A DNA stretch of 64,000 bases, taken from contig NW_024704767.1 of NCBI RefSeq assembly GCF_018977255.1, positions 7,068,001-7,132,000 of the forward strand, given 5' to 3'. Position numbers: made by a program. This document shows, piece after piece, positions 40,001 through 49,000 of the stretch (its first letter is position 1; the number at the start of each line of letters is the position of its first letter). This DNA is from Callorhinchus milii. Lineage: Eukaryota.

Positions 40001-43000
40001 AGGGTGGAGAATGGTGGGGAAGGAGGGTGACCGAAGGCACGGTTGAAGGTGGGTCTTGAGGCAAGGCAGGGGGCGAGGTGGAGGAACTGCGGGATGGAGT
40101 TCCAGAGCGTGGGGGCAGAGTGGCAGAAGGCCCAGCCGCCAATGGTGGGGTGGGCGAGGAGGGGGACGTGAGGGGAGGGAGCGGGCAGGTTGGTAGGGGG
40201 TTAGAATGTCAGAGATAAGGGAGGGAGTAAGGCCATGGATGGCTTTGAAGGTGAGGACCAGGATCTTGAACTGTATTCTCTGTGATGGGAAGCCAGTGGA
40301 GTCGGGCGAAGATGGTGGTGACAGGGTCGTGGAGCCCAGGGAGAGCACACGGACTGCAGAGATCAGGATGATCTGCAGTCTATGATGGGAGAAGTTGGGA
40401 GGCCAACAACAGGGAGTTTGATTAATCGATTAATTTGTGTATGAGGGTCTTGGCGGCCTGGGGTGTGAGACAGTGCGGAGCCGGGCGACATTGCACAGAT
40501 GTGGGGTAGAAAAGATAGTTGAGGATCAAACAAGACGCCAAGGCTTAGTAAGGTGGAATGTGCATTCATGGATGGTGATGCTGTCAATGCCTGAGGTGTG
40601 GAGGCGCTGATGTGAGCCAATTAGGAGGGCCTCGGTCTTGTTGACGTTCAACTGTAGAAAGTTAGCTCTGCTCCAGGACTTGGTGTCTGACAGTCAGTTT
40701 GTCAGGACAGCAGTGGTCCTGGAGTCGAGGGTGGAGGCAGAGATAGAGTTGGGTGTCATCCACGAACATGTAGAAGTTGAACCCATGTCTGCGGATGATG
40801 TTACCAAGATATTGCACATAGAATATCGATATCGAAAAGGAGGGGATCCTGAGGAACTCCGCACAAGACGGTGTGAGGGCTAGAGGAGAAGCCATTTGTG
40901 GAAATGAAGTGGACACTGCGAGGTAGGATCTGAACAATTCAAGGAGAAAACCATGAAGGTTGAAGTGAGAAGCGAGGCGGTGGAGGAGGATAGAATGGTT
41001 GGTCAATGGTATCAAAGGCAGCAGAGAGGATGAAGAGGCAGAGTGAGCTCTGGTCGCAGATGGATAACATGTCATTTGTCACTTTGACCAAAGCTGTTTC
41101 TGTGCTGTGGGCAGTAGTTTGAGAGGAGGGATGGGTCCAGGGAGGGCATTTTAAGGATAGGAGTGATGATAAACCAGCATGAATAGATTAGTGAAGCCAA
41201 ATGGCCAGAAAATGCAATGATAGCAATTCCTGAAACTAAAGTCAACAAAAATATAAGAAAATAATGAAATTTTCCCCATTTTGAACTTGGGAAAACATAA
41301 TTAATTCTTAACCAAACTTTTTTTTGGAAAATGTATTACAAGTCCAAGACAACAACGACCCAGAAGTGATGGAAGAAAAAGAACTGATTAAGATTGATAA
41401 TGCAGATTGAGGCAGTAATTCATCAGACCTGGGGAAGGAGCATGAAAAACTCAATTTCCTGAATTTGAAGGTGATTACTATCTGGTTCAATTGGCAGCAC
41501 ACTTGCATCTGAGTCAGAAGCTTGTGACAAATTTGGACAGTCTGGGCTGACACTCCGATGCACAGATGGGGGAGTGCACCAGAGGCACCATCCTTCATTT
41601 GTTTGTAGGACATTGCTGTGTGCATACTGGCTGCTGTGTGCTTACAAATACAGTCATTACATTTTATAGTTAATCCTATGAAGGGCTTTGAGATGTTTTG
41701 ATGACATGATAAGGCATTGAAATTTTTGCAAGGCGTCTTTGTTTTAAGATCTAGCAAGTCTGATCCTGATTTGAAGGCAATTGCTGACATCACTATCTCC
41801 ATGACAAACTGGGAGGTTGCACCTATTTTATTGTGTTGTGTAATTGCAGTGAGTTATTTTCTTAGTCTGGATTACTGCGGAAGTATAGTCTTGGGTTAAG
41901 TGCTTCCAAAATGGAGCTGAAAAACATTCAGTGGTCTAAAAGTGAATACAGTCTGAACGAGTTTCGAAGAAAATTTGAAACATCTTTGCCTTAAATTATT
42001 AAAGTCACAGAGGGATTCCTGGGCCAGCAAGAAGTGGATTCAATCAGTGCTGCCACTGTAAGTGACCGTCAATAGCTTTGTTGAGTTGCATTTTCAATTT
42101 ATATATAGATTGATCTAAACATCATTTCTTTTTGCAAAGTATCAGTTTGTATTCATTCTAAAAATACTGTGAATAACATCTAATAATACTGGCATACTCT
42201 AAAGCTTTTCCTCATGTCAGGAAATCCGGCCTAGTCGGGAAACTGTAAAATTTATGTTTATAGTAGGATTAGAAAGCTTTTTTAAATAATCCATAAGTAT
42301 TCCTACAGAATTTCTGATTAAGATGATTGCTTTTCTTGAAAGTCATAATAATTCTTATCACTTTAATAAATATTTCCTTGAAACATCTTCAAATAATACT
42401 CTGAGCTACATATTCTGACTCGTTCTCTGAAACTCCATCCCAGAGTCCCTTTGATTCCCCTCACCCCTTTTTCAAGACCTCTTTTACTGTGCTTTCGGTT
42501 GTCTTTACCCTTTGAGCCCTTTCAGACATGAAAGGTGCTTCATAAATGAAAATTGTAATGTATTAATTTGTACTACGTTGGTGGCAGGAGAAAAACTGGC
42601 CTGACCTAGAGAAGGGCAATATCACTCGAGGTTACAATTTGCTTACACGGTGAAACAATATGGAAATAGGAACAAAGATCATCTGTCCCATAAACAACGA
42701 ACAAGCACAATTTAGTGAATGTTGGACTTTATCCTAACCAATCTTGTGATATATTCTCCAAAATTGACAAGGAGCTTACTGGACTGCCGTAAATCTTGCA
42801 TAAGAAAATGCATGTTACACTATACAGTATTATACACTGATCAATGTTTAAAAGAATACGAAGTGTACATGATCTAATAGTGAGTTAGAATAGTGCACTT
42901 TTGCTAGTTGTTTTTGTTGATGTTAAATTGTATGATTTTTTTCCCTCTGAAAATGGCAAATGACCCAGTACATACTGTGTCTCCTTGGTCTTATAGATCC

Positions 43001-46000: not shown

Positions 46001-49000
46001 TATAAATGCAATTTATTGTTGCTGTAATAATTAGTAATAAAATCATTGAAAATGTATTGAGCAAAACATATTGAAGGGGAATGGGATTAGAACAGAGCTC
46101 CAGCGAGGTTGTGAGTATCAGCAAACACACAATAGTCCAAAAGGCCTTGTTCCTTGTTGTAAACTTTCTATAAATATGCAGGTTAGATTTTAAGTATTCA
46201 TTTTAATGTAAATAATGTCAAATAATGTTAGTTAAAAAAAGAACTAAGTTGCATTTTGACTTGATTTCTACATTTTAAGTTACTATTTTTACTTTATTTT
46301 ACAGATATCACTTTGTTTGATAAAACTGAAAAAAGTCGACATGGAAATGAATACGCAGAACTTGAGCCATTGTACATCAGTCTGCAAGAATGTAAGGAGG
46401 ACAATACATATCACACACTACATTCTTATCAAAGACAAAATAAAATGCTGCCGGTACAACTTCCTGTAGAGTATCCAACTCAAGTCAATCAACAAAATAA
46501 GATACAAGAATCTCCAAAACTCAAACCAAAAGGCACCTCTCCTTTGCCTGTCTTAGCCAAAACAACAATGGACACCCAATCATTATCAAACACACCGTCT
46601 AGTACAAGCAATGTACAAATCGGCAAAACAAATAAAATTGCCACTATGAGTGATGTTCCACTGGATTTACAAACTCTGGGTGTAGATGAGATCTGTGACT
46701 GTTTGAATTTACTCAACATGAATCAGTACATTAAGGCCTTTCAGTTACAGCAGATTGATGGGACTTTGCTCTTTGACATGGACAGAGATATGATGCAGAC
46801 CACACTCAAGATGAGCAATTTTCACATTACCAAACTTACACGATTCATGAAAGGATGGAGGCCAAAATAACTAATGTATGCAATATTCATGTAAATAAGG
46901 CCATAATGAGTCCACTCTACATAAGAACAAAAGAAACCCGAGACGAAAAAAGACCAAGGTCCATCTAGTTCGCCTTCCATCTTCCTGGTGGTCACATGCC
47001 CCAAACTACCTATGTACTGTTTCCATAATGCTATTTCCTTGAAGAAAACTATCTGAAATTGCTCTGCATTTATAATGAGAAATATAAATCGATTCATATA
47101 TGAAATTTTTACTTTTGACTATACCATACAATTTACATTTACATTTATATAGCACCTTACTTCTGGCTGGGTATTTTAATCAAGATATTGTTGCAATTCT
47201 AAAACTACATAAATATGAGTCTCAGACTAAATGCAAGCTTTGGAAAATAGAGGATTTCAATATAAGTGGGATTACTTGTTTATTGAAAGTAATGGAAAAC
47301 CCTTTTGTTAGTTTTATAATTATGGATTAATCTGTTTTAGTTTTGTGGAACATTTTCTGTAGGGTCTCCATATGCTGAGTTGATATCTTATGTTTATGTT
47401 TCTTATGGTATCTTATCTTATGAATTGAATACATAAAAATGAACTGGATTCATATATTATGCCCATTTGAGATTATTGTTATTTTGTTCATTGTTAAGGC
47501 TACTAAATGATATGCATTTTAATTCACTTAAATATTTTTTCACTGTCATTGTTTACGCTGGATTTAATAATAATATTTGCAGAAAGGTACTTTATTGATA
47601 AGTAGCGTATTATTGTTTTAAAATTTGTATGAATTTTTACATTCCAATTCTAACAAAGGGTTTCCTTTTTAAAATTTGCAATGTAACAAAAGTATAGTGC
47701 AATAAAGTAATATAGTGACCACATAAGTTAAAAATATTTCTGTACGATTCTTATGGTGTATGTTTCTGGAAGGGGAAACACATAAAATATTGTTTATGAG
47801 GTCCGTATCCCGAATCTGACATCGGGCCCTCAGTAGATCGGAGAGTTAGTTATAGTTAGGGAGGCGCCAGGGTATGAAGGGATTTGAAAAGGAGTGCGAG
47901 GATCGTGAAATTGATCTGTTCGGCGATAGAGCGCCCGGTTAAAACTGGTGTGATAGGGGAGGTACGGAGGTTAATCCGGTGAGTATGCGAGCGGCAATAA
48001 AAAAAATAAATTCCTTTCCACGAACCAACTGGGTTTGGAGTCAATTGATATCTGCAATATTCTCTCACTCTTTTCCACCCACAGATGACAGAGACCCAAC
48101 TTTTTTTGGGGGGTGGGGGGGGGGGGGGGAAGAGTCAAATAGAGGAGAATTTCTCTTAGTAATTAAGAGAAAAGCACCAACTAACTCCCAATCAATCAAT
48201 CAATCAATAATAATAATAATCCTTGCATTTGATAGAGCGACTTATCACGTCTCCGAGACGCCCCGAAGCGCTTCACAGAATATACCGCAAAGGTGTAGTG
48301 ACTGTGCATTTGGTCAGAACTGATTTCAAACGTCGGGCGCAAATTTAGTTAAGTTCCTGATGGTTAGAGGAGAGGGAAAAGTTGCGTCAGAATTTAAAAA
48401 AAAAATTTTTTTTTTGCAGACGCACAGGTGTGTGTGTGGGGGGGTGGGAACGAACCTTGGCGGAGCTGTTGTTATCGACGGTCGCAACCAACGGCAACCA
48501 AACCAAACCCGAGCGTCGAGAGAAAGTGCTGGAAAAAAATACCCCGAGCAACGGTCAGAGCCCGAGCCGGCGGGGGGGAGGGGGGGGGCTGTGACGTAAC
48601 ACTGGGAGGCGGAGTCAGGGCGACAAGCTGGGTTGGGGTTGGTGGGTGAGGAGGGGGGCGGGGGGGGAAGGGGAGGGGGAGGGGCGGGGTGAAGAGTCCA
48701 GAACATTCTGCGGTGTCCATTACATAGGACGGTACAGCCCGGAGCGCGCGCGGCAGAGCACAGGCGCAGCTCCCACTCGCTTCACTGACGAGAGCGACTA
48801 AAGCAGAGGTGAGACTGAGTGAGTGAGTGACTGTGAGTGAGTGAGTGACTTTCATCGACATTACTTTTCCCGCGAACTTACTGTATCGTTCGTCTCGTTT
48901 ATGATTTCGTGCGAACGTTGAGGGAGGAGGTTTCGCCTTGAACTCAGCTGGTCTTACTTTTTTTATCAACTCGTGTCGCGAACTAGTACAGCGGGGATAA

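What the first reader, a model, noticed from the sequence alone, without database searches (positions are those of the whole stretch)
41911..46870. Hidden compact GAREM/THEMIS-family (CABIT-SAM) adaptor gene between IDH3A and DNAJA4
Seen: five exons with good splice sites join in phase into 400 codons, though the ORF track shows only unconnected pieces. Knowledge: GAREM1/2 have an N-terminal CABIT domain and a C-terminal SAM ending GWRPK and are more than twice this length; THEMIS proteins have CABIT domains but no SAM. This protein shows the recalled GAREM hallmarks at both ends (LKNIQWS..LP[Q]IIKV, LPVNI, IPIVIPMY..W, MKGWRPK) but is very diverged, has a short CABIT-like region, and lies where human has no such gene. 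Inference: a distinct, possibly uncharacterised branch of CABIT-SAM signalling adaptors kept in basal vertebrates and lost in mammals.
Basis: partly seen in the sequence, partly recalled or inferred. Interest (0 to 1): 0.88.

Follow-up and report, generated by a model that had tools for sequence, protein, structure and literature searches.

The report
Short CABIT-SAM adaptor gene, elephant shark
This is a real five-exon gene for a small signalling adaptor related to GAREM and THEMIS, found in sharks, fishes and amphibians but never studied, and this elephant-shark copy carries a premature stop codon.

Summary
The five exons are real. A family profile built without this species hits six of the window's 2842 open-frame pieces, in order. 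They sum to 400 codons plus a stop.

There are two caveats. Codon 28 is an in-frame TAA, where shark orthologues have lysine. Intron 3 needs a GC donor.

The gene is not hidden. It is Callorhinchus milii LOC103188115 (UniRef A0A4W3HBV7), whose 365-residue model skips the stop and drops 35 conserved residues.

Named orthologues of about 340-425 residues exist in sharks, bichir, sturgeon, paddlefish, gar, salmon, coelacanth, lungfish and amphibians. Nearly all are labelled "uncharacterized", and none is from an amniote.

The N-terminal domain is homologous to CABIT (hhalign 99.3%, E 4e-20). It lacks about 80 central residues, including the cysteine that names the domain. The C-terminus is a SAM domain closest to GAREM1's.

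Loss in mammals, a tree with named GAREM1/2 and THEMIS, and the reality of the stop stayed untested. The joined 400-codon model was never built or searched.

The parts
41911..42057 (+). Exon 1. Holds the start codon and codons 1-49, the first strands of the CABIT-like domain including LP.IIKVTEGFLG. Donor is GTAAGT.
   Evidence: The family HMM hits the two halves at profile positions 1-27 (E 1.2e-6) and 29-50 (E 1.3e-7). tblastn with P0002 residues 1-50 gives 62% identity.
41992..41994 (+). In-frame TAA at codon 28. This is the only defect in the model.
   Evidence: All 7 aligned elasmobranch orthologues have K at this column. The public 365-residue model P0001 skips it together with 35 conserved residues.
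42997..43126 (+). Exon 2 (ILRIHCLRSLKRAIAECKNGKVLSLPVN...). Ends with one spare base. Donor is GTACAA.
   Evidence: HMM positions 50-95, E 2.9e-12. tblastn with P0002 residues 50-89 gives 62.5% identity.
43715..43903 (+). Exon 3 (GPLTMEQVLLYFTLPVNI...LLGHTINSS). Followed by a GC donor, gcaagt.
   Evidence: HMM positions 93-157, E 5.8e-16. The junction ...SSG|CLL matches orthologues and P0001.
44990..45160 (+). Exon 4 (CLLVRIPIVIPMYMHQIKVVVAEGF...HFIYQ), the end of the CABIT-like domain. Donor is GTATGT.
   Evidence: HMM positions 144-211, E 2.3e-20. tblastn with P0002 residues 153-208 gives 60.7% identity.
46305..46870 (+). Exon 5. Holds the conserved YAELEPLYISL motif, a low-complexity linker, the SAM domain ending MKGWRPK, and stop TAA at 46868-46870.
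   Evidence: Pfam SAM_1 6.9e-6 (26.8 bits, cut-off 23) and SAM_2 2.8e-4 (21.4 bits, cut-off 20.5). HMM positions 209-383, E 1.8e-52. Motif.

Best explanation
The locus is the elephant-shark (Callorhinchus milii) orthologue of an unstudied vertebrate gene family.

Architecture (shown):
- A shortened CABIT domain of about 215-240 residues. It is homologous to the CABIT domains of THEMIS and GAREM-type proteins but lacks about 80 central residues and the conserved cysteine.
- A short tyrosine motif, Y-x-x-L/I-E-P-x-Y-x-x-L, at the end of that domain.
- A disordered linker.
- A C-terminal SAM domain of the GAREM type ending GWRPK.

Function (inferred, not shown): a small cytosolic scaffold. The CABIT-like domain binds partner proteins, as in THEMIS and GAREM. 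The SAM domain mediates self- or hetero-association. The conserved YxxL/I tyrosines may dock SH2 proteins when phosphorylated.

State of this copy: as assembled, it cannot make the full protein, because codon 28 is TAA. Everything else is intact. The stop is therefore either a very recent real nonsense change (a null allele or young pseudogene; my estimate about 0.6) or a base error in the assembly (about 0.4). These data cannot tell which.
For: Gene model:
- Six colinear HMM hits out of 2842 pieces.
- tblastn with three orthologues finds the same exons.
- The exon table gives 400 codons.

Identity:
- Exon 5 is 100% identical to UniRef A0A4W3HBV7_CALMI 'Uncharacterized LOC103188115'.

Family:
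- phmmer of that record against 1.84 billion representatives gave 595 hits at E<=1e-3 and 12 at E<=1e-30.
- Named orthologues include sawshark, gar, paddlefish, lungfish, newt and frogs.
- A further 23 hits include 10 or more sharks, coelacanth, sturgeon, bichir, Xenopus and salmon.
- In a 65-row tree the vertebrate proteins form one clade (SH-aLRT 100) whose branching follows the species tree. Callorhinchus is sister to the elasmobranchs.

CABIT homology:
- Pfam CABIT scores above its cut-off in 7 of 10 homologues.
- The family profile against SAM-less Pfam-CABIT proteins gives hhalign 99.3%, E 4.1e-20, over 191 columns.
- The family profile hits a THEMIS chain (9uou_B) at E 2.8e-6.
- In the language-model search, 25 of the 30 hits shared the first hit's Pfam set (CABIT); the top scores were 0.92 and 0.90 (THEMIS).

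SAM:
- Pfam hit on exon 5.
- The best solved relative is 2dkz, 'hypothetical protein LOC64762' (E 2.4e-5; 1.3e-14 with the profile). By my recall this is human GAREM1.

Fold:
- The AlphaFold2 model of the sawshark orthologue has mean pLDDT 81.8. The N-domain is mostly above 90, the linker 243-309 is below 50, and the SAM domain is above 90.

No decay apart from the stop:
- 67 of 73 columns conserved in 18 other vertebrates are kept. The other species deviate at 0-8 columns.
- The end branch is 0.40, comparable with the sharks.
- All splice sites are intact.
Against: - The window's own pieces, and the public 365-residue model, do not reach Pfam CABIT at all. CABIT membership rests on orthologues and profiles.
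- The eponymous cysteine and about 80 residues of the domain are absent.
- Foldseek against solved structures gave no match at E<=0.001 for the N-domain, and only SAM hits near the top.
- The window's linker holds no PxxPx[KR] or [KR]xxPxxP motif. Only 13 of 20 vertebrate members have one. Grb2 binding in the GAREM manner is therefore not supported for this copy.
- The tyrosine motif lies partly in a confidently modelled strand (residues 232-238). It may be structural rather than a docking site.
- The TAA means the protein may not be made in this animal.
- No expression data were available.
Confidence: 0.8

Rival explanations
1. The elephant-shark copy is a genuine, recently inactivated pseudogene or a segregating null allele. 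The TAA is real and the protein is not made from this haplotype.
For: - In-frame TAA at codon 28.
- The public model had to skip it with a junction that has neither GT nor AG. This suggests the annotators' assembly carried the same base.
- The family appears dispensable in amniotes: none among the named hits.
- The window also lacks the SH3-type proline motif that 13 of 20 vertebrate members have.
- It changes the near-invariant Q59 to L.
Against: - This is the only lesion. There is no frameshift and no broken splice site.
- 67 of 73 conserved columns are kept.
- The branch is not accelerated.
- A single base error would look the same.
Confidence: 0.5
2. It is simply GAREM1 or GAREM2, or a truncated fragment or misassembled piece of one of them.
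For: - The SAM domain is closest to GAREM1's among solved structures.
- NCBI names one salmon member 'GRB2-associated and regulator of MAPK protein 2 isoform X3'.
Against: - Orthologues of 340-425 residues with the same start and the same end occur in more than 20 species and form one clade.
- The domain lacks the roughly 80-residue cysteine-bearing segment that long Pfam-CABIT proteins have.
- The gene has its own start codon and stop codon within 5 kb, between two unrelated genes.
- No named GAREM1/2 sequence could be obtained, so this was not tested by a tree.
Confidence: 0.03
3. The N-terminal domain is not a CABIT relative. The protein is a SAM protein with an unrelated beta-rich domain.
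For: - No Pfam CABIT hit for the window's pieces or for P0001.
- Pfam hits in orthologues cover only profile positions 1 to about 76 and/or about 162-244 of 255.
- No fold match to solved structures.
- The defining cysteine is absent.
Against: - hhalign 99.3%, E 4.1e-20, against SAM-less CABIT proteins over 191 columns.
- The N-domain HMM scores 62 to 92 bits on proteins with full-length Pfam CABIT: P0057 (Pfam 112 bits) and P0100 (Pfam 73.6 bits).
- THEMIS chain hit at E 2.8e-6.
- The solved CABIT coordinates were probably not in the fold library. The CABIT2 preprint defers coordinate release to journal publication. The CABIT1 preprint and the THEMIS-Grb2 paper date from after the library's 2026-04-08 cut-off.
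Confidence: 0.04
4. Chance open frames. There is no gene.
For: The ORF track shows only unconnected pieces.
Against: - Six colinear HMM hits with E from 1e-6 to 1e-52, against 0.93 for the next piece.
- 100% match to a public protein record.
Confidence: 0.01

Closest known systems
GAREM1 / GAREM2 (FAM59A/B), Grb2-associated regulators of Erk/MAPK
   Same: - One N-terminal CABIT-type domain and one C-terminal SAM domain.
- The SAM is the closest solved relative (2dkz).
- The tail is GWRPK. That GAREM ends the same way is my recall.
- The YAEL motif resembles GAREM1's LPpYEEL Shp-binding site (figure legend in PMC8086153).
   Different: - About 400 residues, not about 870 (the GAREM length is recalled).
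- The CABIT lacks about 80 central residues and the cysteine.
- No long central region.
- A proline-rich SH3 ligand is absent from the window and from 7 of 20 vertebrate members.
- The family forms its own orthologue clade.
- No function is known.
THEMIS1-3
   Same: The family profile matches the start of the second CABIT of a THEMIS chain (9uou_B, profile 11-93 against chain 285-372, E 2.8e-6). A THEMIS cluster is the second nearest in the language-model search (0.90).
   Different: - THEMIS has two tandem full-length CABIT domains, a proline-rich sequence and no SAM (passages in PMC4082722).
- The conserved buried cysteine (Cys413 in CABIT2; preprint 10.1101/2024.10.01.616165) has no counterpart here.
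Uncharacterised invertebrate CABIT-SAM proteins (octocoral LOC114529989 and relatives; hemichordate LOC144444657/LOC144444677; abalone LOC124273066)
   Same: - The hemichordate and abalone proteins share the same short domain without the insert, the YxxIEP motif and a SAM tail.
- The octocoral proteins share the CABIT plus SAM layout.
   Different: - The octocoral proteins carry the full CABIT with the cysteine segment.
- The invertebrate short forms end GHIPR or GWRPE rather than GWRPK and are only 22-28% identical.
- None has been studied.

Membership tests
CABIT domain (Pfam PF12736) | Score above Pfam's gathering cut-off (24 bits) for the window's own product | tested here: not met
   0 families for the five N-terminal exon pieces. 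No CABIT hit for the public 365-residue model even at E<=10. The pieces are short, and the public model lacks the 35 residues where the best match lies.
CABIT domain (Pfam PF12736) | Score above the gathering cut-off in orthologues and homologues of the same family | tested here: met
   7 of 10 are above 24 bits (24.6-34.9). Two are below (20.7 and 17.4). One has no hit. All matches are partial, covering profile positions 1 to about 76 and/or about 162-244 of 255.
CABIT domain (Pfam PF12736) | Profile-level homology to undisputed CABIT proteins | tested here: met
   hhalign 99.3%, E 4.1e-20, 191 columns, against 11 SAM-less Pfam-CABIT proteins. THEMIS chain hit at E 2.8e-6. The N-domain HMM scores 62-92 bits on P0057 and P0100.
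CABIT domain (Pfam PF12736) | The conserved cysteine that names the domain, buried in the SH3-like subdomain | tested here: not met
   The cysteine lies in a segment of about 80 residues present in 11 of 11 long CABIT proteins and absent from 18 of 18 compact members aligned. The same gap appears in the profile alignment. The role of the cysteine is taken from the CABIT2 preprint.
CABIT domain (Pfam PF12736) | CABIT fold, by comparison with a solved structure | tested here: inconclusive
   Foldseek of the sawshark orthologue model against PDB gave 0 matches at E<=0.001 and no THEMIS chain among the rows shown. The library stops at 2026-04-08. The CABIT coordinates seem to have been released later or not yet.
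SAM domain (PF00536 / PF07647) | Score above the gathering cut-off | tested here: met
   Exon 5 scores SAM_1 26.8 bits (cut-off 23) and SAM_2 21.4 bits (cut-off 20.5).
GAREM family | Single N-terminal CABIT plus C-terminal SAM | tested here: met
   The architecture is as described in PMC4082722.
GAREM family | Proline-rich region that binds Grb2 SH3 domains | tested here: not met
   No PxxPx[KR] or [KR]xxPxxP motif in the window's product. Present in the linker of 13 of 20 vertebrate members. This was a motif scan only; binding was not tested.
GAREM family | Orthology to GAREM1 or GAREM2 in a tree | not tested
   No named GAREM1/2 sequence could be obtained.
THEMIS family | Two tandem CABIT domains, no SAM | tested here: not met
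   One short domain and a SAM.

The most novel reading that the evidence does not exclude
This is a third, ancient lineage of CABIT-SAM signalling adaptors, separate from GAREM1/2 and THEMIS. It is defined by a cysteine-less 'mini-CABIT' of about 215 residues and a conserved YxxL/I-EP-x-YxxL motif. It would have been present in the bilaterian ancestor, kept in cartilaginous and bony fishes, coelacanth, lungfish and amphibians, and lost at the origin of amniotes. It would show which part of the CABIT fold is the minimal working unit.
Probability: 0.55. Interest if true: 0.6.

Novelty: new variant of a known kind. Interest (0 to 1): 0.5.

Why it matters
The structural papers I read passages of count only four human CABIT proteins: THEMIS, THEMIS2, GAREM and GAREM2. 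PMC4082722 lists five in mammals, adding Themis3. What the CABIT domain does is still open.

This is a naturally shortened CABIT that has been conserved from chimaera to frogs, with relatives in hemichordates and molluscs. It would show which half of the fold is indispensable. It also offers a small, tractable protein for binding and structural work in Xenopus, gar or salmon.

If it really is absent from amniotes, it is also a clean case of loss of a signalling adaptor. For genome annotation, the public elephant-shark model is wrong by 35 conserved residues because it dodges a stop codon.

Tried and rejected
- Pfam on single exons found only SAM; nothing for exons 1-4.
- Pfam on the public model found no CABIT.
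- Sequence search of solved structures with the public model found only SAM relatives.
- Foldseek of the orthologue model against PDB found only SAM matches near the top and none at E<=0.001, so it gave no fold verdict on the N-domain.
- The search with an alignment of long CABIT-SAM proteins was meant to recover names for GAREM-like rows. It returned only relatives of one octocoral-type protein.
The origin of P0006, P0007, P0012, P0014, P0057 and the other unnamed rows is unknown. Their places in a FastTree (beside gar, among amphibians, beside Pelobates) are the only clue.
- Johnson et al. 2009, the paper that defined CABIT, is not held. The 'core motif' I remember from it was not used as evidence.
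- Literature searches for LOC103188115, GAREM3, GAREM-like, garem1a, Fam59c, THEMIS-like, and CABIT with shark, lamprey or invertebrate terms found nothing relevant in the library searched. Supplementary files were not consulted.
- Alternative donors for intron 3 were rejected. GT at 43908 puts exon 4 out of frame. GT at 43901 gives 399 codons and one residue fewer than the orthologues.
- A second copy of exon 1 without the stop was looked for in the whole window and not found.
- The genome, plasmid, phage and E. coli collections on hand hold no vertebrate DNA. Synteny and presence in amniote genomes could therefore not be checked.

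
Full report
WHAT IS THERE

The region 41911-46870 (+) holds five exons:
- E1 41911-42057
- E2 42997-43126
- E3 43715-43903
- E4 44990-45160
- E5 46305-46870

The phases fit and the exons sum to 1203 nt, which is 400 codons plus TAA. The four acceptors are AG after pyrimidine tracts. The donors are GTAAGT, GTACAA, GCAAGT and GTATGT. 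Intron 3 therefore needs a GC donor with an otherwise consensus sequence. The two nearby GT alternatives either throw exon 4 out of frame or give 399 codons and one residue fewer than all orthologues.

All work on the window's own sequence was done exon by exon.

IS IT MORE THAN CHANCE?

Yes.
- A profile of 25 family members that excludes this species was run against all 2842 stop-to-stop pieces (15 aa or longer) of the six frames of the whole window. Six pieces scored, with E from 1.2e-6 to 1.8e-52.
- They lie in order on the + strand and are colinear in the profile: positions 1-27, 29-50, 50-95, 93-157, 144-211 and 209-383. The next best piece had E 0.93.
- tblastn with the sawshark, coelacanth and gar proteins found the same five exons. 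Identity to sawshark was 48-62% per exon.

Profile position 28 is missing because codon 28 (41992-41994) is TAA. At that column all 7 aligned elasmobranch orthologues and most bony-fish members have K, so AAA to TAA is the simplest change.

It is the only defect.
- There is no frameshift and no broken splice site.
- 67 of 73 columns that are conserved in 18 other vertebrates are kept. The other species deviate at 0-8 of 73-79 columns in the same leave-one-out count. That count favours species with close relatives in the set.
- The end branch of 0.40 is comparable with the root-to-tip paths of the sharks.

A long-dead pseudogene is therefore excluded. A very recent nonsense change, a null allele in the sequenced animal, or a base error all remain possible. 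I put a real change at about 0.6 and an error at about 0.4, from general knowledge of loss-of-function variant frequencies against assembly error rates. No call here bears on that split.

NOT HIDDEN

Exon 5 alone is 100% identical to UniRef A0A4W3HBV7_CALMI, 'Uncharacterized LOC103188115', Callorhinchus milii, 365 aa. It was the single hit among 339 candidates. The window is therefore elephant shark, not human.

That public model joins ...FETSL directly to AIAECKNG.... In the DNA this junction has neither GT nor AG. It removes the stop together with 35 residues that every orthologue has (alignment A1). It looks like an annotation device for getting past the stop.

THE FAMILY

phmmer of the public record against 1.84 billion representatives gave 595 proteins at E<=1e-3, 106 at E<=1e-10 and 12 at E<=1e-30. 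Most of the weaker ones match only the SAM domain.

Named strong hits:
- sawshark (393 aa, 52% identity)
- gar
- paddlefish
- lungfish
- newt
- two frogs
- two hemichordate proteins and an abalone protein, more distantly

A word-based search with the sawshark protein gave 23 hits:
- ten or more sharks
- coelacanth
- sturgeon
- a second paddlefish copy
- bichir
- Xenopus tropicalis
- two salmonids

Nearly all are labelled uncharacterized, hypothetical or 'SAM domain-containing'. One rainbow trout protein is named 'GRB2-associated and regulator of MAPK protein 2 isoform X3'.

No named hit is from an amniote. The three unnamed proteins among the 12 strongest fall beside gar, among amphibians and beside a frog in a FastTree. 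Their names could not be looked up.

This is consistent with absence from amniotes, but it is not a test of it. No vertebrate genome collection was available.

In a 65-row maximum-likelihood tree ('quick' search), 20 named vertebrate rows plus one unnamed row form a clade with SH-aLRT 100. Its internal order follows the species tree:
- chimaera plus sharks;
- bichir, then sturgeons, then gar plus salmon;
- coelacanth, lungfish and amphibians.

That is the pattern of one orthologous gene inherited since the jawed-vertebrate ancestor. Rows I classed as 'long CABIT with insert' sit on the other side of a weakly supported split (77). One row (P0084) was misclassed by me.

No named GAREM1/2 or THEMIS sequence was in the tree, because I could not obtain any.

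THE DOMAINS

SAM:
- Exon 5 scores above both Pfam SAM cut-offs.
- The closest solved chain is 2dkz, 'hypothetical protein LOC64762' (E 2.4e-5; 1.3e-14 with the family profile). I recall this as the human GAREM1 SAM.

CABIT:
- The single exons and the public model give nothing in Pfam.
- Seven of 10 homologues pass the CABIT cut-off, always partially.
- The N-domain profile scores 62-92 bits on long proteins with full-length Pfam CABIT.
- The family profile hits a THEMIS-Grb2 fusion chain at E 2.8e-6, over the start of CABIT2.
- A profile-profile comparison with 11 SAM-less Pfam-CABIT proteins gives 99.3%, E 4.1e-20, over 191 columns.
- In a protein-language-model search, 25 of the 30 hits shared the first hit's Pfam set (CABIT); the top scores were 0.92 and 0.90.

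Both alignments show that the compact family lacks about 80 central residues present in the long forms. This segment carries the invariant cysteine. That cysteine names the domain, and in THEMIS CABIT2 it is buried in the SH3-like subdomain (preprint passages).

FOLD

AlphaFold2 was run on the sawshark orthologue with a 48-row alignment. I used the orthologue as an intact stand-in because I could not fold the joined window product. Mean pLDDT was 81.8. The model shows a mostly beta N-domain (residues 1-240, mostly above 90), a disordered linker (243-309, below 50) and a helical SAM domain.

Foldseek against PDB found only SAM domains near the top and nothing at E<=0.001. This is no verdict on CABIT. 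The library ends on 2026-04-08, and the CABIT coordinates appear to be later or unreleased.

HOW IT PROBABLY WORKS (INFERENCE)

The layout is that of a small scaffold.
- GAREM and THEMIS act as adaptors around Grb2 and Shp phosphatases (passages read).
- All 20 vertebrate members examined keep a motif, Y-x-x-L/I/V-E/K-P/R-x-Y-x-x-L/I, just after the domain. Its YAEL/YAEI resembles GAREM1's LPpYEEL Shp-binding site (figure legend).
- However, part of the motif is a confidently modelled strand, so it may be structural.
- A class I or II SH3 ligand is found in the linker of only 13 of 20 vertebrate members and not in the window. YxN occurs in only 2 of 20.
- Grb2 binding in the GAREM manner is therefore not a conserved feature, and I do not claim it.

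SURROUNDINGS
- Upstream exons (33224-33466 and 36827-37102, +) are IDH3 alpha.
- Downstream (49042 onward, +) is a DNAJ subfamily-A gene with J, zinc-finger and C-terminal domains.
- A WD40 exon lies on the minus strand at 57642-57893.
- That these are DNAJA4 and WDR61, and that human has ACSBG1 in the interval, is my recall and was not tested.

NOVELTY

No paper in the searched library mentions this gene or a third GAREM-like gene. The structural papers I read passages of state that CABIT occurs only in the THEMIS and GAREM families.

The gene is annotated but unstudied. I rate it a new variant of a known kind and of moderate interest.

Noticed in passing
window 41911-43126, compared with public protein P0001 (A0A4W3HBV7_CALMI): The public 365-residue model of this gene avoids the TAA with a junction that has neither GT nor AG. 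It thereby deletes 35 residues conserved in every orthologue. This looks like an annotation artefact.
   Followed up: yes
window 18600-20300: GC-rich low-complexity stretch (GC 0.593 and GC skew 0.396 for 18001-20000). It reads as a 545-aa proline/threonine/histidine-rich open frame on the minus strand and as glycine/valine/tryptophan-rich frames on the plus strand. It looks like a simple repeat, not a gene.
   Followed up: no
window 21120-21350 (+), possibly also 24933-25615 (+): A leucine-rich-repeat exon (Pfam LRR_4, 6.7e-8) lies upstream of IDH3A, so another gene sits there. The two later frames gave no Pfam hit.
   Followed up: partly
window 17597-17944, 22445-22696, 27375-27605, 58856-59240, 60025-60547 and others; also introns 3 and 4 of the gene (44437-44571, 45645-45986): Many copies of one repeated element leave similar open-frame fragments on both strands (...CCAQLAAAF...YTVNSL...). 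By eye it is probably a SINE-like repeat.
   Followed up: no
protein P0022 (785 aa, origin unnamed): This relative carries the short CABIT-like domain twice (profile 91-216 at residues 5-131 and 5-216 at residues 287-503) and seems to have two SAM-like tails. It is a tandem form of the compact architecture.
   Followed up: no
proteins P0024, P0028, P0068 (754-902 aa, origin unnamed): These long proteins have the short, insert-free N-domain (84-142 bits, contiguous) and a C-terminal SAM, but no Pfam CABIT hit. Length and domain type therefore vary independently in this superfamily.
   Followed up: partly
window about 38268-38543: The window's single N lies here, in the interval after IDH3A. It was left untouched.
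   Followed up: no
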